Shown here in pieces: positions 295-57,200 of a DNA stretch of 64,000 nucleotides. The DNA is taken from the NCBI GenBank assembly GCA_024679065.1, contig JAGIQG010000009.1, positions 55,552,001 to 55,616,000 of the forward strand. Reading direction: 5' to 3'. The notes beneath the pieces were generated by a model. The model was given only the letters and a program-made list of their open reading frames with translations, did no database searches and had not been told where the DNA came from. Every line of letters starts with the position of its first letter. Within the stretch, counting starts at the first letter, position 1. The translations under genes and the position numbers were made by a program. The stretch comes from Sphyrna mokarran. Lineage: Eukaryota.

Positions 295-3200
295 CTAGAA
301 AAAAAAACAATGAAGTACTCAATACTTGTCATAAAACAATCTATACTTGGAAGTTATAAAGCACCAACCATGTCAACAGTTTTTTCATTATATATTTTGT
401 GAACCCAATAATCCAGAATATTTAGATATGGGGACAGATCAGTGAATGCACACTGCAAGCCTTTGAGCTGTAAACAAAAGATTCAGCTCATTTGGCTCAT
501 GAGAGAATTACAAAGTAAGAGGTTATGACACTCCCTGCATGCCCAAATACATTATAAAATAATTAAGGAGTTCTCTGGCATTGTTAGAATAGTAAGATGA
601 CTTCCTGCACCTGGTAGCTCAAGAAAAGTGTTAAAATTACAAGCTTAGGTGCTATCCCCTTCCCATGGCTACTGATGAAAATTAAGCATTTCTGTCCCTC
701 ATTTCTTTATTTCCTAATTTCTTCTATTTTCAAGGTTTTTCTGTTTTAATAACATTTCACTTTTTATTAAAACCCAGATTCTGAAGATGAAGCCCACAGA
801 GAAGCCCACACGCTTCAGTCATGTATATGTCTGGAAAAGGTTGAGTTGATGAATCAAGTACTAAGCACTTACCAATGCTCCTTGGTATATTTGAGATTTG
901 TGCTTTTATAACTTGCGTACCAGTTTCTGGGCTGTCAAACACTGTAGCATTCAGTAAAGCAATACCAAATTCCACATTGTTAATATTTCCTATAACACTT
1001 CCTCTGGCACGCTGAGGACCACCTGAAAAAAAGACAGATACTGCAAATTTCCTGCTACTTTGAAAAGAAAATTCAAGAGCATAGATTAGCGCTTGTTAAC
1101 CAGTCACTTCCCTATGAGAAGATACGTTCGCACTGTGTACCTTGACATCCTGAACTATCCATGGCATTGGCATGCAATGTATTAAAACAACTTTCTGCTG
1201 AAAATGAAATGCTTTGTGTAAGTGAACCTCAGTAAAATGTATCTTCTTAAGATTAATAGACTGATGAAATGTATGAAATTCATTCAGTACATTTCTGGTT
1301 ATCTAGAAGATTCTGAAAGGCTTGAGAGCTTTATGATCAATTAAGCTTAAATAAATGATACTGGAATGGTAACAGAATGATTGGAAGTTATTGAAAAGTG
1401 TTAAGTGCATTTTTCTGGGTTCATTATGATTTTCTGGTATAATTTTAATGCAACCTTGATGTACTGTGACTTGTGAAGAAATGCAGAGAACAAAAGTAGA
1501 ATTGGTATAAAATTTGAGTGAACTGCTGTATGCTATACTCACATTGGATTGCAAAGTGTGGTGTACTACAATTATAGTAATGCAATTGATATAGTTATTT
1601 ATATATTTTATGTGTAAGGGAAATGTTTAAATTCAATTTTATTCTACAGGTAGTTGTTATGTCTGGGAAACATTTAGCTAAAGGGTTGTGAAAGCAAGTT
1701 AAGTACTCATTTCAGCTAGGAATTTGTTATGTTGATATGCTGATGGATTTCTGTTGACTTAAAGGATTCCTTGGGAAGTTGATTGATAAGGTCATGTAAC
1801 AATGTGGCTAATGTGCAGAGCTGAGTCTGTAGCAGAGAGAAAGAAGCTTTTGCAGTTTAGAGTTGGGATTTTAGATGGAAATTGAAAATAGAGTTTCTTC
1901 AAGCACCTTAGGAACTCATCCCTCTCTCAGAAAACTCCAAACCTGTGTACAATTGTTATAGCAAGTAGACATGAGTATTAACTGTATTTAAAGTGGCCTT
2001 TAAGTCTGTAAGAGGAATGTTGCCTGCTTGGAACTGGAAGTTTAAAATTAACATGGTTAACGTCAGCAAAAATAGAAGATAGGAATGATGTTAATGAAAA
2101 AGGTCATGTCTCACAAAGCTTTTTTCTTGATGGTAGGACTTCTTTGAAGTGGTTTTTGTTGAATTATGAAGATTGTATCGAATTCAAAACTGAAGCTCTT
2201 TTCAATTATTCAACAAAGCAGCTGACAAACCTGGACATGGCTGGATTTTACATCTAGACACCTGTGAACCATCGCCTGGGCATGAACGGCCTCCATTAGA
2301 GGGCACTGGGTTGTTACACAGACGAAGACGCCTCTGTTCACCACCTCCACAAGATGCTGAACAATCATTCCAGGTTTGCCAAGGTCCCCAATTTCCATCC
2401 ACTGGACATAAATTTAGAAGGAATAAATAAGAACAATTACTAAATAGCATTATTTGTATCACCAAGGAAGAGTCTGAGGAAACATTAGAGCTTTACCACA
2501 CCTTAGACTATTTCATTAGGTTTTACATTAAATTAATTGCCTTTCTGGTGAGTAAAATCATACTTTTATAAACATTCCCCTCTTGTTCCTTGTAAATTCC
2601 ATTCTTTCTTACATGTCCCTTTACATCCCAACCTTACTGAAATCAAGGCTTGTCTTAATAGCCTATTTTAGCTCATTCTTTCCCAGGACTTTTAATCTGT
2701 GGATTGCTTCACCTCCTTCAATCATTCCTTTCTTTTTTTTTAAGCAACACAGCACGGGAAACAGGCCCTTCAGCCCAACGAGCCCGCGCCGCCGTCATAC
2801 TATATAGTAGCAAATCCATTATCCTATTTTAATATTCCTATATAATATATATATTATTCCTAATATGGAAAATTCTCACCATAGGGACAATTTGTTTCCC
2901 AATCAGCCTAAGAGCGAATTTTTGGGTTGTGGGAGGAAACCGGAGCGCCCGGAGAAAACCCACGCAACCACGGGGAGAACGCGCAAACTCCCGCAGACAC
3001 CGGCCCAATTCCAAGTGTCTGCACAGCCACATCGATAGTCTCTGAGCTGTCATGGTGCCCTTCAGATGGTCCACATAAAGCACTCATTTACGACATGAGG
3101 TACCAGGCAACCCATGAATCAACATCCAAGAGCTGTACCCGCACCACCTGCCGAATGCATGCTCAATGTTGGTCAAGTATGGACCGAATTACCTGTGGAA

Positions 3201-6200
3201 AAAAGCCGTAGTTAAACAGTCCTACTATATCCCTCTATCTGCATACCGCTCATGTGGCTGTCCAAGAGACCCTTAAACAGCCCCAGCGTGCCTGCTCCCA
3301 CCACCTTACTCGGCAGTGCATTCCACACCCCCACTACCCTTTGTGTGAAAAACTGCCCTCTAATATTCGTCCTATACATAGCCCCCCTCACCCTATGGCC
3401 ATGACCCCTCGTCCTATCCATTTCTAAAGGTGGAAAAAGTTTACCTCCATTTACTCTATCTATACCCCTTATAATCTTATACACCTCTATGAGATCCCCT
3501 CTAAGCCGACGTCTTTCAAGGGAAAACAACCCCAGTCTATCTAATCGTTCCTCATAAGACAGTCCTTCCATACCAGGCAGCATCCTGGTAAACCTCCTCT
3601 GCACTCTCTCCAAGGACTCCACATCCTTCCGATAGTACGGCGACCAGAACTGGACGCAGTATTCCAAGTGAGGCCTAACCAAAGTTCTATACAACTGCAA
3701 CATCAAACTCCTACTCTTGTATTCTATACCCTTTTCTATGAAAGCTAACATACTATACGCCTTCTTTATCACCTTCTCCACCTGTGAGGACACCTTCAGA
3801 GACTTGTGAACCTGCACCCCCAAGTCTCTCTGCGTCTCTATGCTCCGTATAGTTTTACCTTTTATCCTATAACTCTCTTCTACATTTTTCCGGCCAAAAT
3901 GCATCACCTCGCATTTATCCGGATTAAATTCCATTTGCCATCTATCTGCCCAGTCTACCAACCTGTCTATGTCCTGTTGTATTGCCTGACACTGCTCTTC
4001 TGTACCCGCCAATCCAAGCATCTTGGTGTCATCAGCAAATTTGCTGATCTCACCACCTACCCCTACTTCCAAGTCGTTTATGTAGACCACAAATAGAAGA
4101 GGACCTAGTACTGAGCCTTGTGGCACTCCACTAGTGACAGGCTTCCAGCCGGAAAAAGAGCCTTCCACTACTACCCTCTGTCTCCTCCTCCCGAGCCAGT
4201 TCTCGACCCATCTACATACCCGACCCTGTATCCCATGCGCCTTCACCTTCTCTATCAGTCTACCATGAGGAACCTTGTCAAACGCCTTACTGAAATCCAT
4301 GTAGACGACATCAACAGCCTGTCCTTCATCAACTGTTTTTGTCACTTCTTCAAAAAATTCCACTAGATTTGTAAGACAAGACTTCCCCTTGACGAAGCCA
4401 TGCTGCGTATCCCTGATCAGATCGCAGCGCTCCAGATGCTCATACATCCTGTCCCTAAGGATCCTCTCCATTAGCTTACCTATAACTGAAGTCAAGCTCA
4501 CCGGCCTATAGTTCCCTGGGTGATCCCTCTGACCTTTTTTAAACAACGGTACTACGTTTGCTATCCTCCAGTCCTCTGGGACCTCACCTGTGTCCAAGGA
4601 AGAGACAAAGATTTGCGTCAGAGGCCCAGCCAAGTCTTCCCTCAACTCCCTTAGCAGCCTGGGGTAAATGCCATCAGGCCCCGGAGCTTTATATGTCTTT
4701 AAGCTGCCTAACAGCCCCAACACCTCTTTCCTCGTAATCCTTATTTCCCTCAACCGATCCTCAACTTTGTCAACATCAGGCACAGACATCTGTCCAGTCT
4801 CCTGCGTGAATACCGACGCAAAGTATTCATTCAGGATCTCCCCCATTCCCTCAGGCTCTAAGCATAGATCCCCTCCTCTGTCCCTAACAGGTCCAATCTT
4901 GCCTCTAACCATCCTTTTGCTCCCTACATAGGTGTAAAATGTCTTTGGATTTTCCTTTATCCTGCCTGCCAGAGCCACCTCGTGGCCCCTTTTTGCCTTT
5001 CTAATACCCCTTTTAAGATCCCGTCTACACTCTCTATAAGCTTCCAGCGCTGTCTCAGTCCCTAGTTGCCTAGATCTAATGTAAGCCTCTCGCTTTTTCT
5101 TGATCAAGTCCTCAATCTCCCTGGTAAGCCAAGGTTCTCTAATCCTACCTTTCCCATCCTTCCTCCTTGCCGGCACGTATCTTTCCTGCAGAGAGTTTAG
5201 TTTTCCCTTGAAAGACTCCCACATGTACCTCGTCGACCTGCCCTCAAAAAGCTTATCCCAGTCGGTATCTTTAAGATCTTGCCTAATCTGGCCATATCTA
5301 GCCCTTCCCCAGTTAAATACCTTCCCTTTTGGGCCAGTCTCGTCCTTTTCCATTAATATCCTAAAACAGACAGAGTTGTGATCACTATTTGACACCTGCT
5401 CTCCTACCTTGACGCCAACCACCTGGCCTGGCTCATTTCCCAGAACCAAATCCAGTATAGCCCCATCTCTAGTCGGGCCATCCACATACTGCTCCAAGGA
5501 CCCTTCCAAAACACACTGTACAAATTCCTCCCCATCCACTCCTACAGCCCTGGGCACACTCCAATCTACTCCAGGAAAATTGAAATCTCCCACTACTACC
5601 ACCCTATTTTTTCTACACTTATCTAAAATGTCCCTGCATATCCCTTCTTCCACGGCCCGCGGGCTGTTGGGCGGTCTGTAGTAAACACCCAACAGAGTAA
5701 CCACTCCCTTCCTATTCCTCAACTCCACCCATAGAGACTCCATCTCCAATCTACAGACTTTTAAAATACATGTTAGTGTCAACTAATCAACATAACTTGA
5801 TCTACTCTGACTTCTCTCTTGGGTGAGATTGGTCTTGTGATAGCACGCAATGGGCAATAGTAAATGTATTGGCCATTTACACTCAGTCTGACTGACTTCA
5901 GAGGAAGAGCAAACTGAATAGAATATAGATTTATTATTGTGTATTTAAAACACTTGCCTATTTTCAGCCTCTTAATCTGCACATCAACATCCCTCAAATT
6001 TAAAATGTTGTAAAATATATAATTTTAAGATCAACAATGTTTACATATCTTATCCATCTTTGATTCATTTGAAGTGTTCAAATTAAAGCATGGGCATTTG
6101 GAATCAATTGTACAAAGCATTATATTCATGAAAAAAAATGTTCAACGAATCTCTTTGAAGGGCAGACTCAAGAACCAGCCTGACAAGACTCACCTTTGTA

Positions 6201-12200: not shown

Positions 12201-15200
12201 ACTTAGGGACTTTACATTTGTAATATAAATACAATGATAAAAATCTAGCTGATAGTATCTAATTGCTTACCTGGACACAACCTGTTCTTACAAACCCGTG
12301 TTTGTGCATCCTGTCCCTCACAGTGGGCCCCATCAAATGATGGCGGAGGATTATTGCACAGTCTTAGTCTAGTTTGAGTCCCTTTACCACAGGTCTCAGT
12401 GCATGGTCCCCAGGGCAACCAGGAGCTCCAGCCACCAACAACTGAAGAAAGATTGATAAAGAGGTACAGGAACATTTCAGTATATAAAAGTATAAAAATT
12501 GGAAGAGGCCTTATAAAGAAGATTAAAATAGTAAACAGGATAGAAAGCGATAAATCTTTAACATTTTATTAAATAGAAATAAAAGATCACAGGTTCACAT
12601 TAGCAATGGCAAATTTATGTCTCTTATAAAGAAAGTAATAAAAAAGTGCAGTGGGCTTCTAAGTCTTTTTTGTTCCTTCCCAGGACATGGGAATTGCTGG
12701 CTAGCCCAATATTTTTATCGTCATTTCTGACTGGCCACTTTCTTGAACTACCAGAGTCCAGGTAGGAGCCTTGATGAGTTGCTGCAGTGCATCTTATAGA
12801 TTATATACACAATTGCCACTGTATATTGATAATGAAAGGGGTGGATGTTAGAAATGATGGAAGGGGTGCTCATCAAGTTGGCTTCTTTGTCCTGGATGGT
12901 GTTGAGCTTCTAGATTGTTGTTGGAGCTGCACCCATCCAAGCAAGTGGAGAGTACTCCACCATACTCCTGATTTGCAGATGATAAGCAACCTTTCAAGAA
13001 TCAATAGCAAGAAAAATCTTGGAAAACTGAAAAGGAACACAGAAGGCAGGAGACTGAATGACTGAACATAGTTTGGAAATGAAGTTTTCCCTTCATACCC
13101 ATCTTGTGAAAAATGACAGATCTAAACTGGGAATATGCAGCGCCATGCAAGGGAGAGACAATATACCATTTTTCTTTCTCTATCACTGAAGATAGGAAGA
13201 GATGCATGATCATATCATTTAAGGTGCACTTGTTTTCAGGAGAATATATTTGTCTGACCTTTTTCTCACTGGTAACAAGCAAGCGACATGATGATGTAGA
13301 GTGTTCTGAATACAACATTATAATGTGGTGCCAATGAGAAAAATGATATGCTGCAAGCTCTGATTATCCTGCTTTCTTTCTCTTCAAAACATGATTTTAC
13401 TAAAAGTGTACATCTTTAAGCACTTGAAGTCAGGGAGGATACTTGATACATGGATGTCTTATTGTTCTGCTTGTGTTTTTGTTAGGAGTTAAGGGAGTTT
13501 AAACATTGAAGCAATTTGCCTTTCTTGCTTTATGGAATTCAGTTAGATCAGGGCATGGGATAGGTGGGTGTCCATCAAATTAGTGCTCTTGTTGATTATT
13601 AGTGCTCTAGTTGCTGTATTTTTTTTGTGTTAGTTATTGATATTAGCTTGTTGTCACTGCTCCCTTTTATAGAACCATAACAGGAGCAGGACTAAAAAGT
13701 TCATTTCAATTCTGAGCCAAATAACCATGAAAACCAACCCCAACACCTCCCACCCGCAATGCAATAGGATCAAGAGATTTTAATTCCTTGGCATTTATTG
13801 CATGTTCCTGAATCTGGCTTGACAGGGAATCAGCAGGAATTATGTCACTGCCAGAGAGTTAGGGTCAAAATTGGTGGTGTGGTGAGGGAGGATTACCCAT
13901 TAAAAAAGTACCTTCCAAAACAAATAGGGACTGGGAGATGGGAAGGCAGAGGTTGGAAGCTTCAAAGGTCTAAGTTATCCTTGTTCAGGCCAGTGAAGTA
14001 GCCTGGTCTTGCGTAGAAGAGGACATATTTTAGAGAAAAAAAAGTACTCTACTCCTGTGTAAGAAAGGCAACGGAAGAGTAAATAAACTGAAATTCAATA
14101 CACTTTTTCAGATATTTCTTGGAGACATCCCTCTGAGTAGGAGTCCTAAGTAATGGAAGTTATATTCAAAGTCTTTGTGTAAGATAGAAAGTTACAGTGA
14201 GACAGTGAACATTAGACTGTTCAAATTGTCTCTGATACCTGGACAAGGCCGAATGTTGCACATGATAGCCTCCACAGCTTTGCCTTCACATCTTTTCCCC
14301 CCATTTTGCACTGATGGATTAGTGCACGTCCTGGTCCTTGTCTTGTTGCCCTGGCCACAGGTACGAGAACATTCCTCCCACTGGCCCCACTCTGACCAGC
14401 TGCCATCCACTAAAGGCATAAAATATTCATTCATAGTGTTTTTCAGCAGTTAATGTTAATTTATTCTTTTAGCAACATTTCATCAAAATAACATATACAA
14501 AATCTTTACCTGTTCTATGTCAAAGAGTTACTCCAAAGCGAGCAGTTTAGATCAAGCAAAGCATAGGCAACAATTAAATCTCAAAATTAAAATTAATTTC
14601 CCTCTTCTGATATGTTGCATTCCTTTCCTGAAGGTATTGACTCATACTGCAGTATGATTGTACAGATTCACCTTGCTCTCTGGTACTTGCGGTGAGTTTA
14701 GAAAGACAATTCATTGATTTTCAAATTTTGATCCCTGAATATTAGGAAGGGCAAGCTAATCTTGGAAGCCCATTAGGTCACACCTCTCTGTTTGTCACCC
14801 GATTTCTTTATCTTTGTATATTTCTAAACAAAAATGACATAATTTTCTGTTGCTGTACACTAATGAAGATTTCAACACTATTAGCAATGTTTATCTTTAG
14901 GTGAATGTCACTTACTTTCTTTTAGAAGCAAGGGCATAGGGTCCTATGAGAGTGAGTCAGTCAAATGTTTCAGGAATTCCCAAGAATGTGCCAGTCAATA
15001 TTTGCTGGGCTCTCTAATAGCATGCTGGTCAATATTTACAGTGTACCTTGATAGCATGTTGATCAATATTTGCAGCGTTCCCTAACAGTATGGTAATCGA
15101 TATTTGCATTTTTCCATGACAGGTGTTCGTTTATATTAGCAATGTTCCCTGAAAGCTAATTGATGTTTACAGGTTCCCTGATGTTTGTTAGTCAATTATG

Positions 15201-18200
15201 GCAGGGTTTCCTGACCGCACATTAGTTGATATTTGCAGTATTCCCTGATGGGTGTTGGTCAATGTTAACAGGGTTTCCTGACAGTGTCGGTCAATATTTG
15301 CAGTGTTTCCTTGTATTTGTTATAACTTCAAATAAATAGATTTGTATCTGTCAGTCTGACCGTAAAACTTAAAGTGGTTCCAATTAAATATGTAAAGGAT
15401 CCAGGAGTTTTATATGATAACCCGAGCAAATACATATTCCATGAGCAGTTCTGACTGAAGCACAACTTGATTATTGAATCTAGCATGGTTACAGAAGAGA
15501 AGGAAGCTATTTAACCTGACATACATGATGGTGTTGAATGAATCAGACTCCTACACATTCTCAGGAAATGTATTCCAGAGTCTAATCATCCACTGCATAA
15601 AAAAAAAAGTTCTATCATTTCTTTGACATGGTGTTAATGACCATAGAAACCCTACAGTGCAGAAAGAGGCTCTTCAGCCCATCGAGTCTGCACCGATCAC
15701 AATCCCACCCAGGCCCTACTCCCATATCCCTCTATCCTACGCACCTCAGGATACTAAGGGGTAATTTTAGCATGGCCAATCAACCTAACCTGCACATCTT
15801 TGGACTATGGGAGGAAACCGGAGCACCCGAAGGAAACCCACACAGACATGAGGAGAATGTGCAAACCGCACACAGGCAGTGACCCGAGCCAGGAATCGAA
15901 CGCAGATCCCTGCAACTACGAAGAAGCAGTGCTAACCACTGTGCTACCGCGCCACCCACGTATATTTGCAATGTTTCCTGAAAACATGTTGGTCATTGTT
16001 TGCTGTGTTCCCCAAGCATATTAGTTGGTATTAACAGGGTTCTCTGTGCATTAGCCAATTATTGCAGGGTTCCCTGACTCCATGATAGTTGATATTTACG
16101 GTGTTCCCTGACAGGGATTTAAAGTTTCATAATATTGTATGGTGATATTTTCCGTACCCAAAAATGTTAATTTTGTTTTACTTTCATGTGTATTCAATTA
16201 CAATGTGCTGTCAATAGTTTTAATTTGGAATGAATTTTTAACTATGCATTCAAAGTTATCCTACACACTCAAAACTATCCTATTGCACTTAGCAATCCGT
16301 ATTGAATAATACACAGTATTTAATTACTTAAGTAATACTTGAATTTGTTCAGTTTCTCATTTAATCCATAAATATTGTTTTGCTATATACTAAAAGCTTG
16401 AGAGAGCCACCTGATCCCATAAATCACAGAGATTATACTTCCTACCCATTCATTCTCCAGGACTCAGGTCTAAACTGCCTTAGGATGCAAATTCTTCCCA
16501 TGGCCACTGTCTCCATACTCTCAAATTCTCCACCTCCAAGACATGCTTCTCCCTCTCTCCAGTCTCTCTTCCCTCCTCATTCCACCATCCTCTCCTTCTG
16601 GTCTCCAGACCTTGGGACCTCCAAACTTGCTCCTCTGACTTTTCAAGGCTTATTACCACGATGCTGCTCCTGCAATGATTTTTATGTTTAAAGAACCTCT
16701 CCAAAAATCATCACTTCCTGTTTTCAGCCAGCCTTGTAAGCAGAGGTCTTTAATTGAGAGGAGGGATGGGAAGGTGGAGAGAAGAGAAGAGAGCAGGGGA
16801 GAAGAGCGAGGTGGAAGGGAAAGAAAGAAGTAGGAGATAAATAAGAAGTGTTTGGATGGGGCATAAGAGTGTATCAGCAGGGAGGGAAAAGAAGAGGAGG
16901 GAGAAAAAGAGAGTTGGGTGAAAGCAAAATGTGTGATTTTTTTTTATGCAACACAGCACGGGAAACAGGCCCTTCAGCCCAACGAGCCCGCGCCGCCGTC
17001 ATACTATATAGTAGCAAATCCATTATCCTATTTTAATATTCCTATATAATAATATATATTATTCCTAATATGGAAAATTCTCACCATAGGGACAATTTGT
17101 TTCCCAATCAGCCTAAGAGCGAATTTTTGGGTTGTGGGAGGAAACCGGAGTGCCCGGAGAAAACCCACGCAACCACGGGGAGAACGCGCAAACTCCCGCA
17201 GACACCGGCCCAATTCCAAGTGTCTGCACAGCCACATCGATAGTCTCTGAGCTGTCATGGTGCCCTTCAGATGGTCCACATAAAGCACTCATTTACGACA
17301 TGAGGTACCAGGCAACCCATGAATCAACATCCAAGAGCTGTACCCGCACCACCTGCCGAATGCATGCTCAATTTCAAGTATGGACCGAATTACCTGTGGA
17401 AAAAAGCCGTAGTTAAACAGTCCTACTATATCCCTCTATCTGCATACCGCTCATGTGGCTGTCCAAGAGACCCTTAAACAGCCCCAGCGTGCCTGCTCCC
17501 ACCACCTTACTCGGCAGTGCATTCCACACCCCCACTACCCTTTGTGTGAAAAACTGCCCTCTAATATTCGTCCTATACATAGCCCCCCTCACCCTATGGC
17601 CATGACCCCTCGTCCTATCCATTTCTAAAGGTGGAAAAAGTTTACCTCCATTTACTCTATCTATACCCCTTATAATCTTATACACCTCTATGAGATCCCC
17701 TCTAAGCCGACGTCTTTCAAGGGAAAACAACCCCAGTCTATCTATTCTTCACACTGCAGCATAATCAACTGAGACTTTGGAAAATTCTGGCTGTATATGC
17801 AGTCATATTTTGTCGTGAACACTGCAGGACAATAATGTCAGCTGATAAACTGTCTTTAGGTATCACCAGTCTGGTTCTGAGGGAAAATGATAATTAAATG
17901 GTCAGTTTGGAATGGAAATGAAATAGAATGATAGCCAGATGATTCTTGTGAGTGAAAGTGATACCAAATGACAAAATAATTGCAATCAAGTGCAGCTGAC
18001 ATGAAATGAAAGCTGTTGAACAACAAAGAACATAGAACAGTACAGCGCAGGAACAGGCCCTTTGGCCCTCCAAGCCTATGATGGTCATGCACTCAGATAG
18101 ACCATTTGTTTGTATCCCTCTATTCCCAGTCTGTTCATATAGTTATCTAGATAAGTCTTAAATGATCCCAGCGTGTCTGCCTCAACCACCTTGCTTGGCA

Positions 18201-21200
18201 GTGCATTCCAGGCCCCCGCCACTCTCTGTGTAAAATGTGTCCCCCGGACATCTACGTTGAACCTTGATCCCCTCATCTTGAACTTGTGACCCCTTGTGTT
18301 CGTCACCTCCGACCTGGGAAAAAGCTTCCCATCGTTCACCCTATCCATACCCCTCATAATTGTATACACCTTTATTAAGTCGCCCTTCATCCTCTGTCTT
18401 TCCAGGAAGAACAACCCCAGTTTACCCAATCTCTCCTCATATCTAAGACTCTCCATATCAGGCAATATCCTGGTAAACATTTTCCATACTGTCTCCAAAG
18501 CCTCCACATCCTTCTGGTAATGTGATGAGCAGAACTGGATGCAGTATTCCAAATGTGGCCTAACCAACTTTCTACGTAGCTGCAACATCACATGCCAACT
18601 TTTATACTCTTATGCTCTGTCCAATAAAGGCAAGCATGTCATATATTGCCTTCACTACCCTCTCCACTGTGCTGCCACTTTTAAGGATCTGTGGATTTGT
18701 ACACCCAGGTCCCTCTGTGTATCTATAATCCTGATGGTTCTGCCATTTGTTGTATAGCTCCCCCTGCTACATTAGATCTACTGAAATGCATCACTTCGCA
18801 TTTATCTGAATTAAATTCCATCTGCCATTTCTCCACCCAATTTTCCAGCCTATCTATATCCTGCTGTATTCTCTGACAATGTTCATCACTATCCGCAGCT
18901 CCAACAATCTTTGTGTCATCCGCAAACTTACTGATCACACCAGCTACATTTTCTTCCAAATCATTTATATAAAAGCAAAATTTGTCAAATAATATGAAAA
19001 ATATCTGGACAGGGAAATATTAACAGGTAAAATGATTTATTAGTTTGCTTTTTCCAGGTGTAGGCATGAAATCTTAAATATAAACTACAAATTAAAACGA
19101 TGAACTATTAAGTAGCATTAGTCTGTAAAGTAGAAATGTACCTGGGCAAGGTTTGGACTGGCATCTGCGTGATTCTAAATGAGTGCCCGTGCAATGCCGT
19201 CCTCCATTTGCAGGCATTGGATTGTTACAAAGTCGCAGTCGTTTCTGCATGCCCTGTCCACAGGTAACGCTACATGGCTCCCACTTCAACCATTCAGAAT
19301 ATCCACCATGCACTGAGGGAGAAACATAGACAATGTTTGTATTGCCAATCCTTGGTATGATTTTTAATTGCATTCTGCAGCAAAGTGAAAAGGCTACAGC
19401 AAATGTTTATAGTGGTTTCAGTTAAAATAATTAATTCTCTCTTACCTTTGAATGTGTTCAATTCACAGCTTTTGATCATAGGATCATAAGAAATAGAAGT
19501 AGAAATAGAGATAGATCATATAGTCCCTTGAGCCTTTCCACTATTCAGTATAATTAAGGTGAATTTTCTGTCTCAGTTCCATGTTTCTACCTACTCCTCT
19601 TTGCCCTGAGAGAAGAAATATTTATCCCAGCCTTGAATATACTCAATCCGCACTCATGACCCTCTGGGATAAAGAATTCCAAAGATTCACAATCCTTTGA
19701 GTGATGGATGTCTTCTCATTTCAGTCCTAACTGATTGGCACCTTATCCTGCCATTATGCCATGTGATCTATAATCTCGGGCCTTTTCAAAATGGGGGTCA
19801 CAACCCACAGATGGGTCACAGGGATATTGAAACTGGGTTGCTGGGTAGGCAATTTAAAAAAAAAGGCATGTTCTATGGTCCTATCCAAAACATCATGAGA
19901 TGTTCTGTGATCCTGTTCAAAAGAAAAGTGGTATGTTCTATTTATAATGTGCATTTTGTAAAAGTTAGTACAGCAATTGAGAATCTCTGGACTCAAGACG
20001 GTGACACAGTCAGCATGCAGAGGAAAAGCTTAGCATTGCCTGATACAATTCCTTACATAAAGTACACATAACTTGAAAACATAAGGTGTATTTTTAAATG
20101 TATAGTAAATCCTGTTTAGATTGTGGCTCTGGCAACAATAATGCAGCTTTCTTGGTCAGTAGTTTGTGAGTTTCTATTTCTAGTGTGTTGAGACATTAGA
20201 TCAATTTGTGTGTCTAAGTGTATAACATTCATTTATATTAGTGAAGGCATTCAAGATCATCTGCACTCACCTTGCACTGTCAGAGTGATTTTGACAAGCA
20301 CAGAACCCATGAGATTCCTGGCCACACACTCATATTCTGATGTGTCCTCCTTCTGCACAGCAGCAAGCCGCAATGAGTTGTTAGATAAGATTGTGATCCT
20401 GTCGTTTCCTATTAACGGCTGACCTTGACGGGACCACTCAATGGTTGGAAGTGGCTCTCCACCTGCTTGACAGTTCAGCATCACTGTGGTGCCAGCATCA
20501 ACAACAGTATCCATGGGTTCAACAGTGAATACTGGGGGACCTAGGGAGAAAAGACTAACACTAACATAAAGCAAAACATAGAAAGGTCTCATCTGTTTTG
20601 CATTTTTTAAATGGAGAAACCTCTAGGAATGAGCCCAAGTTTTTACTGTAGTATACCACCAAGATTGAAAAAATACATCTGAGTATTAGTTAACAGAACT
20701 GCCAGAACTTCAGAGTACTGATGTTGAAGCATAATAAAAGTTGTTGGTAAATCAAAATAATGTGTCCAAGAAGAAGGAAGATGTGTAACAGACACATCAG
20801 AGACAGCATATAGGGAAGTACAAAGACATACTTTTTAGACAACAGTAGAGATACATTCCTCTATGAAATAATATTTGACAGCATTGCTGGTGATTACATT
20901 GCAAAATTTCAAAAACAAAATGATTCATGAACAGGATATGTTCAAAAAGAATTATGACTGAAATGTGATGCCAACGTAGATTAGCTTCACTTTAGCACAC
21001 ATTATGTATTCCTGTAGAACCGTCTGAAGGTCATTCTGATATCAACACTGCACCACTAGGTAACAAAATTCTACGTGAAAATCCCACATAGAAAGATTTC
21101 AAGGAAACAAATTATTATATCTATAAATATTCTGCTTAGGCAGTCTCTTGGGATTTAGGATGACTTGTTTCCACTCTGGTTCAGTGTGTTCTGTGATGGC

Positions 21201-36200: not shown

Positions 36201-39200
36201 AAATTATAGAAATATTTAAGAAATGTTTAGGCACAGTATGCAAAATGTTATTATTGTATGTTGCAGATCAGGCTCATCTAAATTTTCTGCTGGGGGTGAG
36301 GGGTGGGTGGTGAGCACATTTGCAATTTTTCTCATTTAAAAAACAAATTTTGGAAGGATAACATTTGGCATGACACTGAACTGAATTTCTAAATAAATTA
36401 AGCTGTTAAAAAAATTGAATTCCTGGGTAAAATAAAGTGATGTCTCAATAATAAATTGTTAACGTTCAAAAAGTGTAAATAGTAAAGGTGACAAAGGGTG
36501 AGAATGTTATGCCCACTCGCTGTCTCAGGATGCTTACTTATTCACTCTCACCCAGTATAAGATGTGTGCGAATCAGTGAGAAGTCCAAGACAGGGAGTAT
36601 GGCAAAGGCTCATACTCTCTCTCACACACAAATACTCTCCCAATGCCACATGTGCAAACCTTCACTTCCATGTACGCACACACTCTCACTTCCACACAAA
36701 CACACACAGTCCCTTAATCAAGCATGCACACTCTCACTATATTGCATGCAAGAGGGCCTGCACACAAACACACGCACACACTCTCTTAATCCCATGTGCG
36801 TGCTCACTCTGTCTCAAACACACCACCTAGACACCATCAAACCCCCTTGCCCCATGTGCATTCAATCTCCATCCTGCTGTGCACACACATATACACACAC
36901 TCCAGTATGAATATTCAATCTCTTTCACTAATTCCTACCATGCGCGCACCTGGTCCCAGGCACTCACTTCTGCTCATGAACAAATTCTCCACCCTTTTGG
37001 GTATGTACACATACTTTCCCATGCACATTCTCTCACCTGCACACATACTGAATCCCCCGCATGTGCACTCTTTTTCATCTCCCCCGCGCGCTCACACTCA
37101 CTGGTTTACTCCCATATGCACATACATCTCCCTCTCCAGTGCACACTTGTGTGCACCCATGCACCCCCTCGCTATCACTCGCCCTCTCCATCTCTCTCAT
37201 TTACGTACCCTTTCACCTCCTCTCTCTTTCTCAAGTGTGCCCATCCATTGTCTTCCTCTCTTGTGTGTGCTTGCACACCACCTTCCTTTCTCAAATGTGC
37301 CCTCTCTTGCTTAGGCACTTCTTTCCTCATGTATGCCATCTCTCTCTGTATCTGCAACTTTTCTCTTTCAAGATCTATCACTTGCCTCTATGCCTCTTCT
37401 CTTGCTCTAGTGTGCCCAGCTTTATCTTCCCCCTCTTTTATATATTCCCTCCCGCTCTCTTGCCATCTTCTGTGTGCCCTCTGTTGGTCTTGGCATGTGT
37501 GCCTAGGCGCATCCTGACTGTTCTTTCAAAAAATGTGACACAATGTTATACATTTCTAGAATAATTAACAAAGGAGAGACTTGTATTTATGAAGGTCATT
37601 TTCATATTGTTCAGACACATTCTAAACGTTTTGAAATTCAGTCAGTCGTTGTTATATGCAACATTAGAAATATACTACTGATCAGTTAACTTTGATTAGG
37701 ATTGTAGAATGGTTACAGTGCTGAAGTGGGCCTCTTGAGCCCGTGTGGGCTTTCTATAAGAGGAGCTTAACTAGTCCCGCTCCCTGCCTTTCCCTGCATT
37801 TTGTTTCCCACCAGCCACATATATAATTCCATTTTGAAAGCCTTAGTTGAGTCTGCCTCCACCACACTCTCAGGCAGTGCATTCCAGATCATAACTATTC
37901 ACTGCATAAAATCATTTTCCTTGTGTTGCTTGCGATTCATTTATCAATCACTCCAAATCACTGTCCTCTGATTTTTGATCTGTTCATGATTGGGCCCCTT
38001 TCTCCTCATCTACACTATTTAGCCTCCTCATGACTTTGAATATCCCTATCAAATCTCCCTTTTCATCCGCAATTTCTCCAATCTACTCCTGCAGTTGAAG
38101 TCCTGCCTAACTGGAATACTATTTGCTAATCATAAGTTTGTGCCTGATGAAACCATATAATATGTCCCAGTGGTCAAGTCTGTTTGGCTCTCAGTTTGAC
38201 TTCCCCTCATTTCCAAACTTTGCATGCCAGAGAACACTACAATCTTTCCACAGCCACTGTGTGTCACTATAAAGAGAGCATCAAGAACAAACATTAACAC
38301 AAATAATCACCAAAGAAAATTAATAAAAACATTACTCTTGATTTTAATACTTTTAAAAATATTATAGATATTTTTTCAGATATCCTGCCACTTCTCAAAA
38401 TAAGCCACCTTAATAATTATATTTTTTGTAACTTACCCTGCACTCTCAGTTTTATCTTTCCCAAGGCTGTGCCAGCTGGGTTCTGTGCAACACATATGTA
38501 TGTTCCAGAATCCTTTACTGCAGCACGAGTAATCTGAAGACCTCCGTTGGGTAGAACAGTGTAATCCCCTCCTGTATAAACAAAAGCAGTGAGGCTTTAT
38601 CCTGAGTAGCACTGAGTTACAACACACAGAAAACAAAATTGAGCTTAGATTTGTGGAGAAATCTTATCAAATCATTGGCTTTATTGACTCTGGAACAATT
38701 ATCTAAGATAGGAACATGAACACCCTACAGTTTAAAAGAAGGCCATTTGACCATCGAGTCTGCACTGACTACAACCCATCAAGCCCCTATTCCTGTAACC
38801 TATTTATTTATCCTGCTAGTCCCCTTGACACTAAGGACCAATTTAGCATGGCAATCAACCTAACTCGCATGTCTTTGGACTGTGGAGGAAACCAGAGCAC
38901 CCAGAAGAGACCCATGCAGACATGAGGAGAATGTGCAAACTCCATACAGACAGTGCCCCAAGCTAGGAAATGGAACCTGGGTCCCTGGTACTGTGAGGCA
39001 GTAGTGCTAGTCATTGTGCCACTCTGAAAGATGAAAGGAAACATATCTAACTCTATTAGAAATGTAATGTAAATTTACCTGATCCAGCCAATCTACTGAA
39101 TATTCCCAGAACTCTTAGGTGCATGTTTTGGAAATGACAAAAGTTCTGACCATTTTACCTGCTGTGTAAATGCTGATGCCCTCCTTCTGCCAAGTAATAG

Positions 39201-45200: not shown

Positions 45201-48200
45201 TTAGATACTGCTAGACTTGCTGTGCATCTCCAGAAATTCCTTCTCTTCTGGGAACGTATTTTACCAAATGCTACTACCTGTGGAGAGTATACGGTAGCCT
45301 TCCCCTCGAGGTGGCAGCCTGACTCCATTCTTGATCCAATGAATTGTTGGTTTTGGGACACCAGAGGCAGTGCATGTAATAACAGCTGACGACAATTTTG
45401 TTACCAATAGGTCAGTAGCTTCATCAGCAATTGAAGGGGGAACTAAATGGGGAAAAAATTGAAATGGAATAAACAGGTCAGAGTCAGGACTCCGTATAAT
45501 CAATTTATTCATAAAGTTATAGAAATGCACAGAATAGGATGCTGCCATTTGAGCTATTGGATAGGTACAGCCAAGGAAAAGGTATCTAGCCTTTTTACTT
45601 TCCAGTTCTTGGTCCATACCCTTGTAGCTACAATATTATGATGCATATCCATGTACTTCTTAAACACAATGAATGTTTCTGTCTCTACCACCCTCCTGCA
45701 CAGTGAGTTTCACAGTGAGTTTGTGAGGTTATGCACTTTAGGAGGAGGAATGGAGACATAGACTATTTTCTAAATGGAAAATGCTCAGGAAATCAGAAAT
45801 ACAAAGGGACTTGGGAGTCCTTGTTTAAGATTCTGTTAAGGTTAATGTGCAGGTTCAGTCGGCAGTTAGGAAGGCAAATGCAACGTTAGCATTCATGTCA
45901 AGAGGGCTAGAATACAAGTGGAGGGATGTACTTCTCAGGCTGTTATATAGCTCTGGTCAGACCCCATTGGGAGTATTGTGAGCAGTCCTTGGCCCCTTAT
46001 TTAAGGAAGGATGCGCTGGCCTTGGGAAAGAGTCCAGAGGAGATTCACAAGAATGATCCCTGGAATGAAGAGCTTGTCGTATGAAGAATGGTTGAGGATT
46101 CTAGGTCTGTACTTGTGGAATTTAGAAGTTGGGGTGGGGGGGTCCCTGGCGCTGCGAGGCAGCGGTGCCACCTCACATTTCACAGAATGGAATCCACTGA
46201 TTTCATTTAATAACTTGTCCACAGATTATTTTTGCACTCATTAAAGTAATGATCTGAGATATTTTATCAAAACTTCCTCTGCGCACTAAATTATTGTGTG
46301 GCTATTGTAATATAGTTATTAATCCCTTCTAAAATAGATGGGTTAAGACAGAGCTGTGTTAAAATGTCGCACAAAATAACAAAGCAAACAGCTCCCTGCA
46401 GGTATAGTATCGCTAGTCAGGTGTAGAAGATAGAATTAAATTCTAATTTTTACATACTTGTAAGCTTTTATTTACAGAGACACATGACAAACATGCATCT
46501 CCAAACCCAACAATCACAATTAGCCTTCTCCTATATGTAAGCACAATTTCTAGTTAATGCCCAAGAACAATTATACACTGAATTAATATACAATTAACAT
46601 TTGCCAGAGAAAACTGAACTATTGTGCCTTACAACATGAAGAATCCAGCCCATCATAATCTATCAGTACCTACCTTGTACAGTAAGTCTAATAGCTCTTT
46701 GATCTTCCCCAGCATAATTAGACACTTTACACTCATAGTATCCAGTGTCTTCTACAGTGGGTGAGATGATTACAAGAGAACCAGAGGAAAGCAGTCTGCA
46801 GAGAAAAACAAATCAGAAAATTAGCTCATTGTTTTAGTTCTCCTTACTGGATTCTTGTTTCAAATGATCAAAATGAAGTCCTAAGCTTTTTAAATTATTT
46901 TTCCCTTCACACAGGCCACTTAATACATTTAATTCTTAGAAAACTACATAAAGGTTGTTTATCTAGGGCAGTGTTAGTTACCCTTTTGCTCTGGCTAACA
47001 ACCTTATTCAAGGCCCACTCACTAACACAATACTTCCTTAATAACTGGCCATGACATGGTTAGCTCTTTTACTTGCAAAATGGCAAGGATGTCCTAGCTA
47101 CAGCCCATTAGCCATATGTTGTTCACAACCCTGGTAATCCACATTCCACAGGCAGTCAAAGAGTGAATGGTGACTGAGAGGAATAAAGATGTTTCCTCTT
47201 GTGGAAGAACTAGAGCTAGAGGTCACAGTGTAAAAATAAGACATTCTCAGATGAAGATGAGGATTTTTTTCTCTCTTGGAGGGCCAGGGGGAGGCAATGG
47301 CCTAGTGGTATGATCACAAGACTATTAATCCAGAAACTCAGCTAATTCTCAGTTCTGGGGACCCGGGTTTAAATCCGATATTCCACCATTCTCAGAGGGT
47401 GGAATTACAATTCAATAAAAAATACCTCGGATTAAGAATCTACTGATGACCATGAAACCATTGTTGATCATTGGAAAAAGCAATCTGATTCATTAATGTC
47501 CTTGAAGGAGGGAAATCTGCTGTCCTTACCTGATCTGGACTACAAGTGACTTCAAAGCCACAGTAATGTGGTTACCAACTGCCCTGGGACAATTAGAGAT
47601 GGGTAATAAATACTGGCCAGAGACGCCCATGTCCCAAGAATAAATTAAAAAAAAAATCTTTGGAACTCTCTTCCTGGACAGCAATGGAGGCACCATTTTT
47701 AAATGCTGGGAGTGTCATATGGACTGTGGGAAGTAATCCATGCAGATACATGGAGACTCCGTACAGGCAGTCACCCAAACCAGGAATGGAATCTGGGTTG
47801 CTAGTGTCGAGTGGCAGTAACGCTAACCACTGTACCATCGTGCCGCCCCAAGAGCGCCGGAGGCAGGGTCAATAAATATTTCTAAGTCAGAGTAAATAGA
47901 TTCTTGCCAAACAAGGCAATCAAACGTTAATAGGGTTAGGTGGAATGTGAAGTTGAGGCCACAGTTAGAACAGCCATGATCAGCTAGGACAAGCTCTAGG
48001 GCCAAATGGCCTACTCCTGCTCCTAATTCATATGTTTTTACATGGATCACCAGTCTGCTGAGGGCAGCAAATGAATGGGAAAGGGGTCATTTTATGAATA
48101 TAATCATATCAGACTTCTCCATTAATGGATTAATGGTGCCCAGCAATTAGCTGCAAGAAAATGTAATCAACTCATTGATTAGATGGTGTCGGTTTTCCCA

Positions 48201-54200: not shown

Positions 54201-57200
54201 CAGCACCACAATGCTCTCCTTAATCAATACTTCGATACTGCCATTTAGCCCCTTCCTTCCTTTCCTACCATTCCTGAATATCTTGCATCTAAGAATATGT
54301 AACATCCAGTCCTGAGCATCTTTGAGCCAGTTACCTGTTGCAGCCACATCATATTTTCTGATGAAGAGAGAGTCATCCAGACATGAAACGTTAGCTCTGT
54401 TCTCTCTCCACAGATGCTATCCGATCTACTGAGATTTTCCAACATTTTTTGTTTTTGTTTCTGATTCCAGCATCCATAATAATTTACTTTAATCATATTT
54501 TCATGTGCCAAACTACATCCGTAACTTATAAATTTTATTAATCACACACTTGTGTATTCGCATACATGCTTGTTAGTCCTAATTTAGATTTTATTACTTT
54601 CTCCCTTACTCTGATCCCACGTAATAACTTACTATTCTAGTCTTGTGCTATCTATCTCTTCCCAGTATTTTGATGTCATCTCTGATAATTCTCCCTTGTT
54701 CCCACACCCCTATCAATTTAGTTTAAGCCCTTCCGAATGGCACTAGTAAATCGTCCCTTGAGCTATATTTAAGTACATATCAACTACGCAGATTCCATTT
54801 CCCCGAGAACAGGTCCCAGTATTGCAAAAATCTAAAACCCTCTATTCTACACCATCTCACCAGCGATGCATTCATCTACTTTATTCTCTGATTTAAGTGA
54901 GTTCTGGTTGGTCAATTTTTCTCAGCTAGCTCATAAACAGGAGTCATGAGACAAAAGAGCACTAAGTTTATCAAGCCAGGTCATGGCAGCATGGTGGCAC
55001 AGTGGTTAGCACTGCTGCCTCACAGCTCCAGGCCGGGTTCAAATCCAGCTTTGGGTCACCACTGTCTATGTGGAATCTGCACATTCTCCATGTGTCTACA
55101 TGGGTTTCCTCCAGGTGCTCTGGTTTCCTCCCACAGTCCAAGGATATATGGGTTAGGTTGATTGGCCATGCTGACTTGCCCCTTAGTGTCAGGTGGGTTG
55201 ACAGGGTGGATGCATGAGTTGCGGGAATGGGGCCTGGGTGGATTGTTGTCGGTGTGGACTCAATGGACCAAATGGTCTCCTTCTGCACTGCAGGGATTCT
55301 ATGTACCAGGATGTAAATAGTCCTTAGACTGTATGATGACCCCGTAGGGCCACCGAAAAAGCTTTTAAATCCTGTTACTTTAAGTTGAGAAAAACACATT
55401 ATTAGCATTTCTCTAAATTTCCTTGCTATGCCCACCCCAGAAAAATAAATTCAATTGTGTGTGAAAAGTGACTTCTGACCGCAGGTTGCTTGTTGAAAGA
55501 ACAGCACCATCCTTTCTCCAGGTAACTTGGGGAGCTGGTACCCCACCTACTGAACAATTGAGCTCCGCAGGCTGGTTCATGTGGACAGTCACCATCTGTG
55601 GACCTTCTTTTATTGTTGGAGCAACTGTATGTTCAAAACAACAGAGATTAGGACTAATTTAATGCGGTTATATCTACATTGTTTGTCAAAAATAAAAGGT
55701 CTTGTTGAAAAAAGAAAGTCTTTCATTGCTAACAAAAGAACATCAGTCACTCAAACTGCTAATTATACAATACAATTTTGATAGAATCCCTGCATTTGTT
55801 TGAACCTTTCATACACACAAATCATTGATTTCATAGTTCAGAAAATAAATTGATCCTGGCTTTCTTGTTGGATTCTGGTAGGAGTCTAGTCTGCATGTGC
55901 ACACACTGTATTTGGAAATCTCAAACAGTAAGTGTGTACAGGATATCTGCAATTTTCCAGCACATTCTTCTGACTTGTAAGGCTCTGAGTTGATATTACA
56001 AGCTTGAAATAATGGTGAAACTAAATGCATCCCGTGGCCTGGCAGAGAGTTTGGAGGCAAAGGGAACTTAATTGGATGGGAGGTTGTTTGCTGGGGATCC
56101 TGCCATCTTTTGGTTTATGCCTGACTAAGTCTGTGACCTGTGAATAGCTTTCCTACCTAAACTCTAATTGAGGCCTTTAAGTGGGCAATTAATTACCCCA
56201 CCACCACCACTGCTATTTGAGGGTGGGAAGGGAGTTGCCATACAGGGAGCCTGTGAAGCAAAACACTATTGGGTTTGCTTGCAGGTTTTTGGTGGGGTTC
56301 ACTTATGGGTACTTCATTCTAGTGGGCCTTTCTCAAAGGAGGTGACAAAGGACAGCTATTAGTTCTTCAGCCATATGATAAACATCAGTTACTTTGGGTC
56401 CCAATGTTCCAGCAGGTGCTGTCAATTGTTTAGTTAAACCTGGCGTCACATGCCTTTACTCTTCCTTTGAGGTCAATAATTCTATTATTTTGGCATTGAT
56501 TTTAAAATCCAAACAGTCATGCTTCACATTACCATACATTTTTTCCAGAAACAGTGACTATGTTAATAATCATTTCGCTGAGCCAGAGATGGGAAGATTT
56601 TGAATGTATACTTACCATTTACTGTTACAGTAAATTCTCTTGTCATTTTTCCTGCAATATTGCTTGCAACACAAGTGTATAGGGCTGTATCTGCAAGCTC
56701 AGCATTATTAATCTGAAGGTATCGTCCATTGGAGAGGATGCGTAAACGGGGGGTGGCCTGCAAATTTAATTAAAGGAGCATGAAGTCACAGCCATAACTT
56801 CAAAAACTAGTTGGGATGCAAATAGCAAAACAAGGGTTTGAGATGAGCAGGTGGCAACCAAATGCTTTGGCTGTTCTAAATTCTATCACAATGTGTAGTA
56901 AACTCTGCTATGTTCCAACTCACACAATGTCCTGTTCACTCATTACACTTGTGTTCATTGATTTATACTGGTTCCTTATTAAGCAATGCTTTTCTTATCC
57001 TTGGATTGGAATTTGCAGTCAAATAATTAAGTGTGTTTTTAGCGGCGGGAAGGCACATAAAATATGTTGGGTGTTAGACCACTACTTTGCCACCTACCCG
57101 TGACCTCTCCCATGATACTGTGGATGGGTAAAGCGCCATTAGCCAGCCTACCCTTAAGCGGTCCACTTCTCCTGCCTCTTCAGTCATAATGAACTGGGCA

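What the first reader, a model, noticed from the sequence alone, without database searches (positions are those of the whole stretch)
2733..3211. Recently active CR1 LINE carrying the V-SINE V-domain inside its own 3' UTR, with no tRNA head
Seen: after the ORF2 stop (3212) the element runs ~480 nt. Its 2883-3000 segment (gggacaatttgtttcccaatcagccta...tgtgggaggaaaccggagcgcccggagaaaacccacgcaaccacggggagaacgcgcaaactcccgcagacac) aligns by eye with the body of the HE1 SINEs here (15757-15880, 38830-38952, 55060-55190). It has the same orientation and is followed by the shared 3' stem-loop tail. The SINE tRNA head is absent and replaced by unrelated sequence. The same architecture recurs at 16937-17412, so it was mobilised as a unit and is not a chance nested insertion. 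The older CR1 at 18028 has only a ~60-nt UTR. Established: V-SINEs share a conserved central V-domain of unclear origin and function, and shark HE1 SINEs borrow only the 3' tail of a CR1-type LINE. Inference: either an autonomous LINE captured its parasite's body and kept it, or this lineage preserves a LINE-borne source of the V-domain. I cannot confirm it is absent from repeat databases.
Basis: partly seen in the sequence, partly recalled or inferred. Interest (0 to 1): 0.8.

Follow-up and report, generated by a model that had tools for sequence, protein, structure and literature searches.

The report
LINE carrying a captured, folded SINE
A recently active jumping gene carries a whole captured parasite element at its tail end, with the parasite's promoter broken but its predicted RNA shape preserved, which hints that this long-unexplained conserved sequence works as a folded RNA.

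Summary
The V-domain is really in the 3' UTR of a young CR1-type LINE. Two copies are 98.9% identical with unrelated flanks, and ORF2 is open for 856 codons.

The "no tRNA head" claim is wrong. Positions 3060-3019 are the first 42 nt of a V-SINE head (23/42 identity), followed by a ~19-nt deletion that removes the T-arm/B-box; the A-box is degenerate. Head-to-tail length is 319 nt against 318 nt for a local SINE. So the LINE captured a whole vertebrate-type V-SINE; it is not the source of the V-domain.

The head remnant was missed by sequence-only searches but found by a covariance model (87 bits, 57 without it). It keeps 20 of 23 head-involving pairs, 4-6 through two-sided changes. The fold is a head-V four-way junction plus the known Vhc hairpin. 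Two invertebrate V-SINEs fold the same way independently.

Likely reading: an RNA fold kept under selection without Pol III transcription. Whether that selection acted in the LINE or in an unsampled donor SINE is not settled. A 2016 paper says no such domains were known in LINEs; Repbase, Dfam and the host genome could not be checked.

The parts
2733..5782 (-). Copy A: 5'-truncated CR1-type LINE with a captured V-SINE as its 3' end; true 5' junction at about 5750-5776
3212..5782 (-). ORF2, uninterrupted 856 aa (APE endonuclease lacking its first ~95-105 residues, plus RT); 61-67% identical to the closest proteins found
3061..3211 (-). 151-nt block of unknown origin; matches only copy B in the window; predicted long hairpin (z -2.46); no Rfam match
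3019..3060 (-). Degenerate V-SINE tRNA head, positions 1-42 (A-box with 3 mismatches at 3049); supplies 5' strands of helices P1 and P3 and all of P2
3009..3018 (-). Site of a ~19-nt deletion that removed the T-arm/B-box; the remainder extends P3 into an 11-bp hairpin
2885..3008 (-). Vertebrate-type V-domain, 73/92 identical to the SINE consensus over the aligned part; 3' strands of P3 and P1, and P4
2929..2963 (-). Vhc hairpin (P5); 9 of 9 pairs intact
   Evidence: PMC4758252 section 11
2801..2884 (-). AT-rich spacer (GC 0.21), collinear with the SINE spacer; weak resemblance to the ORF2-end motif found in SINE S1 (p 0.07, not significant)
2733..2800 (-). CR1-type 3' tail stem-loop (2742-2800) and A9 (2733-2741)
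16937..17747 (-). Copy B, same architecture (head remnant 17224-17265), truncated within the 3' part of ORF2
15632..15957 (-). V-SINE copy S1 (comparison)
38702..39028 (-). V-SINE copy S2 (comparison)
54981..55318 (+). V-SINE copy S3 (comparison)
47721..47848 (-).
18027..18980 (-). Older CR1 of another family (71% nt identity to copy A in ORF2) with a short UTR and no V module

Best explanation
A CR1 lineage acquired an entire vertebrate-type V-SINE (head, V-domain, spacer, CR1-type tail) at its 3' end, 151 nt after the ORF2 stop. Because such SINEs carry a CR1-type stem-loop tail, the fused RNA stayed a substrate for ORF2 and became a new master element [inferred]. The simplest route is read-through into, or insertion of, a same-strand SINE; a template jump is also possible [inferred]. 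The Pol III promoter was then lost: B-box deleted, A-box degenerate [shown]. The module diverged by about 45% in the head and 20% in V, yet kept a four-way junction, in which the head 5' end pairs with V, plus the Vhc hairpin [shown computationally]. The family has recently made new copies [shown]. I infer that the fold is selected at the RNA level because it helps whichever retroposon RNA carries it, most likely by stabilising the RNA or aiding ORF2-RNP assembly upstream of the tail. Confidence is about 0.9 for capture and about 0.6 for selection inside the LINE lineage.
For: Head remnant in register at SINE position 1. CM from SINE copies only: 87.1 bits over positions 1-162, 56.9 bits when 3019 and above is cut off, 46 bits for the sequence-only model over positions 68-160. 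Of 124,684 non-SINE 42-mers in the window, only the two LINE copies reach 20 of 23 head-involving pairs; identity plus pairs is 43 against a next best of 37. Neutral simulation with the same substitution counts: p 0.0002-0.047 for head pairs and 0.0006-0.047 for two-sided compensations across 8 settings. LINE keeps 33 of 36 pairs, as many as or more than the decayed SINE copies (33/36, 25/31, 30/36, 21/28), although it is much further from the consensus. 31 of 36 pairs have probability 0.8 or more in the last 808 nt of the transcript. L001 and L002 fold on their own into the same topology, z -4.3 and -4.6. With all 8 sequences the covariation score is 0.414 against 0.206 shuffled, 0/500. Module length 319 vs 318 nt. 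No B-box match within 2 mismatches in the UTR, against 0-2 mismatches in S1-S4.
Against: Unanchored head alignment is not significant. With only the five window sequences, covariation does not beat shuffles (56-299 of 500). Alignment A5 was fitted to the structure and holds two near-identical pairs of sequences. RNAalifold on the unfitted 7-sequence alignment recovered only P2, the T-arm and P5, not P1, P3 or P4. I first saw the fold in the LINE itself, so the structure is partly post hoc; SINE-only alifold of S1-S3 gave P2, P3, P4 and P5 but not P1. The 104-nt junction alone folds only modestly better than shuffles (z -1.47). The donor SINE family is not sampled, so compensations may predate capture. 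No junction scar or old-tail remnant was found (p 0.24-0.85). No functional data exist.
Confidence: 0.6

Rival explanations
1. Capture is real but the module is a neutral passenger. The compensatory changes were inherited from a different, unsampled V-SINE family, and only the tail matters to the LINE.
For: P1 covaries among V-SINE families generally (by eye), so a donor could have supplied many of the changes. The module branches outside S1-S4, weakly (support 54). Only two near-identical LINE copies are available. Only the tail is known to be needed by stringent LINEs (PMC4176376 abstract, L2-clade elements).
Against: Changes incompatible with Pol III transcription come with new pairs: the A-box T-to-C at 3049 pairs with G3024, and the B-box deletion is closed by an 11-bp hairpin. 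This is post hoc and concerns few pairs. All 13 V-internal pairs are intact although the module has a long branch (0.34).
Confidence: 0.3
2. This LINE lineage preserves the ancestral, LINE-borne source of the V-domain.
For: A V-domain is present in a LINE UTR. Kojima 2018 (PMC5786205) shows that SINE bodies can derive from LINE UTRs. The tree does not nest the module inside S1-S4.
Against: A tRNA-derived head remnant lies upstream of V in SINE register. The module is vertebrate-type (support 100 against invertebrates), whereas V-SINEs span cnidarians, molluscs and insects. The S1 spacer carries a motif matching the ORF2 end (p 0.002; not seen in S2 or S3 with this query), which suggests the SINE tail came from a short-UTR CR1. 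The other CR1 3' ends in the window lack V: no further model hits.
Confidence: 0.03
3. A local artefact: a chance nested SINE in one LINE copy followed by segmental duplication or mis-assembly.
For: Only two copies were seen, 13 kb apart; no target-site duplication was found.
Against: Similarity ends exactly at the A-tail and at B's own 5' truncation point, and the flanks are unrelated. The module is heavily diverged from SINEs while ORF2 is intact and the copies differ by 2 substitutions and 2 indels, so it was replicated inside an active lineage.
Confidence: 0.03
4. A cassette of about 425 nt (unique block, head, V, spacer) was inserted into the LINE's own 3' end with a 12-nt duplication, so the tail is the LINE's original one. 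This is a variant of the capture route.
For: An 11/12 direct repeat at 3230-3219 and 2805-2794, with only one other such site in the window. The tail is equally close to S1 (36/50) and to the older CR1 (33/49).
Against: The repeat is not significant in a shuffle test (p 0.15). The head-to-tail length equals that of a whole SINE.
Confidence: 0.2

Closest known systems
CR1-clade LINE (HER1-like partner of shark and ray HE1; pairing listed in PMC3747384 table)
   Same: APE plus RT ORF2 whose hits are bird and turtle CR1-like proteins at 40-52% and four closer proteins at 64-69% in the C-terminal region; 3' stem-loop tail; 5' truncation.
   Different: 479-nt UTR holding a whole SINE-derived module instead of about 60 nt; ends in an A-run. 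Not compared with the HER1 sequence itself (not available).
V-SINE superfamily (HE1, DANA, Ac1, Lun1, BivaV; PMC4824008)
   Same: Head, V-domain, spacer and LINE-type tail in the same order and length; Vhc hairpin; head-V pairing.
   Different: No functional Pol III promoter; lies inside a protein-coding LINE transcript.
MER6/MER6A (PMC6887750, sections read; supplement)
   Same: Another mobile element that captured a vertebrate V-SINE body and spread it; shows that V capture has happened before.
   Different: MER6 is a non-autonomous, extinct DNA MITE that took body and tail without the head and moves as DNA. Here an RT-encoding, recently active retroelement keeps the head half needed for the fold.
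LINEs carrying small-RNA or SINE pieces: RTE-1_DAn with a tRNA-like sequence, Ingi-3_AC with a Ceph-like piece (PMC5786205); BovB with SINE fragments at its ends (recalled; paper not held)
   Same: SINE or small-RNA sequence carried within a LINE family.
   Different: The Ingi-3_AC piece is in the 5' UTR and is RTE-like; none is reported as a complete V-SINE forming the LINE's 3' end with a conserved fold.
Vhc stem-loop (PMC4758252)
   Same: The 39-nt hairpin is P5 here.
   Different: That paper (sections 10 and 11 part 1 and passages read) describes only this hairpin and says it does not appear preserved in fish V-SINEs. The head-V junction (P1-P4) was not in the passages I read.

Membership tests
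CR1-clade LINE | ORF2 with APE endonuclease and RT | tested here: met
   Pfam PF14529 E 1e-10 and PF00078 E 6e-34
CR1-clade LINE | RT phylogeny places it in the CR1 clade | tested here: inconclusive
   No tree was built. The 120 listed hits are mostly unlabelled bird and turtle RT proteins at 40-52%; their CR1 label is from my own knowledge.
CR1-clade LINE | 3' tail stem-loop shared with other CR1 | tested here: met
   Hairpin at 2742-2800; 33/49 identity to the older CR1 tail
CR1-clade LINE | ORF1, 5' promoter, autonomy | not testable with these tools
   Both copies are 5'-truncated
V-SINE | Central V-domain | tested here: met
   73/92 to the local SINE consensus; matches published Ac1 and MER6 V alignments by eye
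V-SINE | tRNA-derived head | tested here: met
   5' 42 nt present as a remnant; T-arm deleted
V-SINE | Functional Pol III A and B boxes | tested here: not met
   No B-box within 2 mismatches; A-box 3 mismatches (box patterns recalled)
V-SINE | Short, non-coding, independent unit | tested here: not met
   Both copies extend into ORF2; no stand-alone copy of this variant among the model hits in the window
HE1 (label for S1-S4 and the donor) | Identity to the HE1 consensus; elasmobranch host | not testable with these tools
   HE1 consensus not available (not held; 0 occurrences). A host exon is 61-69% identical to amniote hemicentin-1, with no cartilaginous-fish hit.
Known Rfam RNA family | Match at gathering score | tested here: not met
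   2 sub-threshold matches, E 6.5 and 8.2, in 2700-3300

The most novel reading that the evidence does not exclude
The V-SINE 'conserved domain' is really one half of a metazoan-wide structured RNA: a four-way junction formed with the tRNA head's 5' end, plus the Vhc hairpin. It acts in cis to promote retrotransposition independently of Pol III. An active CR1 lineage domesticated its own parasite to gain this element and kept the fold through compensatory change after the promoter died. This would be a first case of a SINE conserved domain working inside a LINE, and a natural cis-assay for V-domain function.
Probability: 0.35. Interest if true: 0.8.

Novelty: new variant of a known kind. Interest (0 to 1): 0.58.

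Why it matters
Why SINE central domains stay conserved for over 600 million years is an open question. [quoted passage not shown] This family is a counter-example, with sequence flowing from SINE to LINE.

The remnant separates the RNA fold from the Pol III promoter. If the fold was maintained after promoter loss, the V module has a function in the RNA of the element itself. Because the module sits on the same RNA as an intact ORF2, a standard cis retrotransposition reporter with helix-breaking and rescue mutations could test this directly.

The head-V covariation also gives a concrete structural model for all V-SINEs.

Tried and rejected
Unanchored local alignment of SINE heads to the UTR: not significant in 12 of 12 tests; rejected as a test because it ignores position and pairing.

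ARAGORN: no tRNA in the window or in L001/L002. Rfam: nothing.

Old-tail remnant in the unique block: none (3 of 3 tests, p 0.24-0.85). Second ORF2-end motif in the spacer: weak (p 0.03-0.9 across 4 tests involving the module). Target-site duplications: none evident for A or B.

Tree of the module: uninformative on nested versus sister to S1-S4 (support 54-67).

Scan of bacterial and archaeal genome contigs for the Vhc motif: 2 loci, both SINEs with no ORF2 match within 1.5 kb. This says nothing about animal genomes.

Protein search for close relatives: none above 69%, and no DNA context. Host taxon search: hemicentin-1, taxon unresolved. Supplement searches for the unique block: no hit in 2 of 3 files of PMC4824008; none readable for PMC5499810.

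An HDV-like ribozyme reading of the junction was considered by eye and dropped: no pseudoknot elements, no Rfam hit.

Literature: 10 searches found no report of a V-domain in a LINE or of the head-V junction. Ogiwara 1999 and 2002, Sun 2007, Repbase and Dfam were not seen.
Full report
1. Setting. The window is intronic and exonic DNA of a hemicentin-1-like gene on the minus strand. One exon is 61-69% identical to bird and mammal hemicentin-1; no cartilaginous-fish protein was among the 59 hits, so 'shark' is an inference from a V-SINE with a CR1-type tail (PMC3747384 table). Copy A has an uninterrupted 856-aa frame at 3212-5782 with endonuclease and RT domains. It lacks the first ~95-105 residues of related ORF2s, so it is 5'-truncated near 5750-5776. 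Copy B (16937-17747) matches A at 98.9% over 815 nt, with 2 substitutions and 2 indels inside the element. Similarity stops at the A-tail and at B's own truncation point. These are independent, recent insertions. Two copies in 64 kb is 4-113 per Mb if random, a crude and selection-biased figure.

2. The V-domain is there. A profile from SINE copies S1-S3 hits both UTRs (E 5e-24 and 6e-23) from the end of the head onward and finds a fourth SINE, S4. Identity to the four-copy consensus is 73/92. The sequence matches published Ac1 and MER6 V alignments by eye, including the 3' part seen in vertebrate V-SINEs.

3. The head is not absent. MAFFT places 3060-3019 ungapped on head positions 1-42, then opens a ~19-nt gap over the T-arm. 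Unanchored local alignment was not significant (12 of 12 tests), which explains why it was missed. In register, identity is 23/42 (shuffle p 1e-4); 3 of 124,682 other 42-mers reach that identity. Folding the UTR showed a four-way junction that pairs this segment with V. I mapped 36 pairs onto the SINE consensus: P1 (head 5' end with V), P2, P3, P4 and the Vhc hairpin P5. The LINE keeps 33 of 36, including 20 of 23 that involve the head. Only the two LINE copies reach 20 among 124,684 non-SINE 42-mers. A covariance model trained on S1-S4 alone scores 3060-2918 at 87.1 bits over its full length, 56.9 bits with the head cut away; the sequence-only model gives 46 bits over positions 68-160. No B-box is found within 2 mismatches and the A-box has 3 (patterns recalled). 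Head-to-tail length is 319 nt against 318 for S1. The UTR is therefore 151 nt of unknown sequence followed by one whole, promoter-dead V-SINE.

4. The fold has been maintained. Simulating the observed substitution counts at random keeps 12-16 head pairs on average against 20 observed (p 0.0002-0.047), and gives 1.1-2.0 two-sided compensations against 4-6 observed (p 0.0006-0.047), over two ancestor reconstructions and four transition biases. 31 of 36 pairs have probability 0.8 or more in an 808-nt context. A motif scan of prokaryotic genome contigs returned 2 loci, both apparently invertebrate V-SINEs in a bacterial MAG. Each folds unaided into the same junction plus hairpin (z -4.6 and -4.3) and scores 62.5 and 57 bits. 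On the 8-sequence model-fitted alignment, 15 of 36 pairs (7 of 9 in P1) show two-sided changes; covariation is 0.414 against 0.206, 0/500 shuffles. By eye, in 23 published V-SINE consensuses (19 complete entries, 4), 2 lack a head and 1 lacks the P1 partner. Of the other 20, 14 pair 7/7, 1 pairs 7/7 with a one-base shift, 1 pairs 5/5, 3 pair 6/7 and 1 pairs 5/6; 9 show two-sided changes. Results against: the five window sequences alone do not beat shuffles; RNAalifold on the unfitted alignment recovers only P2, the T-arm and P5; SINE-only alifold misses P1; the junction alone has z -1.47, and junction plus P5 has z -2.32; the structure was first seen in the LINE.

5. Direction and route. A tRNA-derived remnant in SINE register, SINE length, and grouping with vertebrate copies (support 100; position relative to S1-S4 unresolved, support 54) indicate flow from SINE to LINE. 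The tail does not discriminate (36/50 to S1, 33/49 to the older CR1). No old-tail remnant was found. An 11/12 direct repeat at 3230-3219 and 2805-2794 could mark an insertion into the LINE's own end, but is not significant (p 0.15). Read-through, nested insertion and template jump cannot be separated here.

6. Mechanism. Shown: capture of a full SINE, promoter loss, retained pairing, recent mobility. From established knowledge: stringent LINE ORF2 binds the 3' stem-loop (PMC4176376, abstract only; L2-clade elements), so a SINE bearing a CR1-type tail can serve as a LINE 3' end. Inferred: the fold is selected on the element's RNA (0.6), versus a passenger whose compensations came from an unsampled donor (0.3). 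Pairs gained at promoter-destroying changes (the pair at 3049-3024 and the hairpin closing the deletion) favour selection in the LINE but are few and post hoc.

7. Comparison and novelty. PMC5804259 (passages; supplement) states that no conserved SINE domains had been found in LINEs. PMC5786205 (parts 1-4 of 5; supplement search) screened Repbase LINEs against SINEs and reports no V case. It set aside 3'-terminal similarities, so it could have missed this one. PMC6887750 (parts 1-2 of 5; supplement) gives the closest precedent: MER6 captured a V-SINE body and tail without the head. PMC4758252 (sections 10 and 11 part 1, passages) describes only the Vhc hairpin. PMC4824008, PMC3747384, PMC5499810, PMC11481361, PMC7245038 and PMC10468316 were seen as passages only. 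Ten searches found no report of this architecture or of the junction. The original HE1 and V-SINE papers, Repbase, Dfam, the supplement of PMC5499810 and one supplement file of PMC4824008 were not seen and could hold either. A family this young may well exist as an undescribed de novo consensus.

8. Verdict. The feature is real. The headline needs correcting from 'V-domain without a head' to 'whole V-SINE with a broken promoter and a conserved fold'. The origin-of-V reading falls, while the function-of-V question becomes more testable. New variant of a known kind; interest 0.58.

Noticed in passing
window S1-S4; L001:1492-1648; L002:1387-1544; published consensuses: V-SINEs from insects, molluscs, fish and frogs pair the 7 nt before the A-box with the segment just upstream of the Vhc hairpin, with two-sided changes. 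This conserved head-V helix was not found described in the papers read.
   Followed up: partly
window 3061-3211: The unique block folds into one long hairpin (z -2.46, 5 of 200 shuffles as good); origin unknown, no Rfam hit.
   Followed up: partly
window 3230-3219 and 2805-2794: An 11/12 direct repeat brackets the unique block plus module; possible insertion scar, not significant.
   Followed up: partly
window 2885-3018 and 2742-2800: CpG is undepleted in the LINE's V-domain and tail (o/e 0.95 and 1.05) against 0.23 for the window and 0.00-0.71 in SINE copies, fitting young copies.
   Followed up: no
window 49184-49297 and 50135-50248: A 114-nt direct repeat, 100% identical.
   Followed up: no
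window 46140-46171 (-) and 47339-47378 (+): Short weak matches to the SINE head (E 0.02-0.03); the first abuts a CR1 fragment on the opposite strand.
   Followed up: no
window 27119-27511, 59561-59845, 47900-48040, 37700-37910, 52296-54169, 45722-46112: Several older RT-related LINE fragments; those at 27k, 59k and 47.9k share a different tail type. None carries a V module.
   Followed up: partly
P0055: A protein labelled Carnobacterium maltaromaticum on a 3-kb contig is 67% identical to this ORF2 over 853 aa; probably vertebrate host DNA in a bacterial assembly.
   Followed up: no
L001, L002: Contigs of Sedimenticola MAG records carry animal V-SINE copies (88% identical over 248 nt); probably host contamination.
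   Followed up: partly
window, minus strand (e.g. 12245-12565, 19092-19406, 20257-20622, 35826-36170): Exons of a hemicentin-1-like gene; both LINE copies lie in the sense orientation of this gene.
   Followed up: partly
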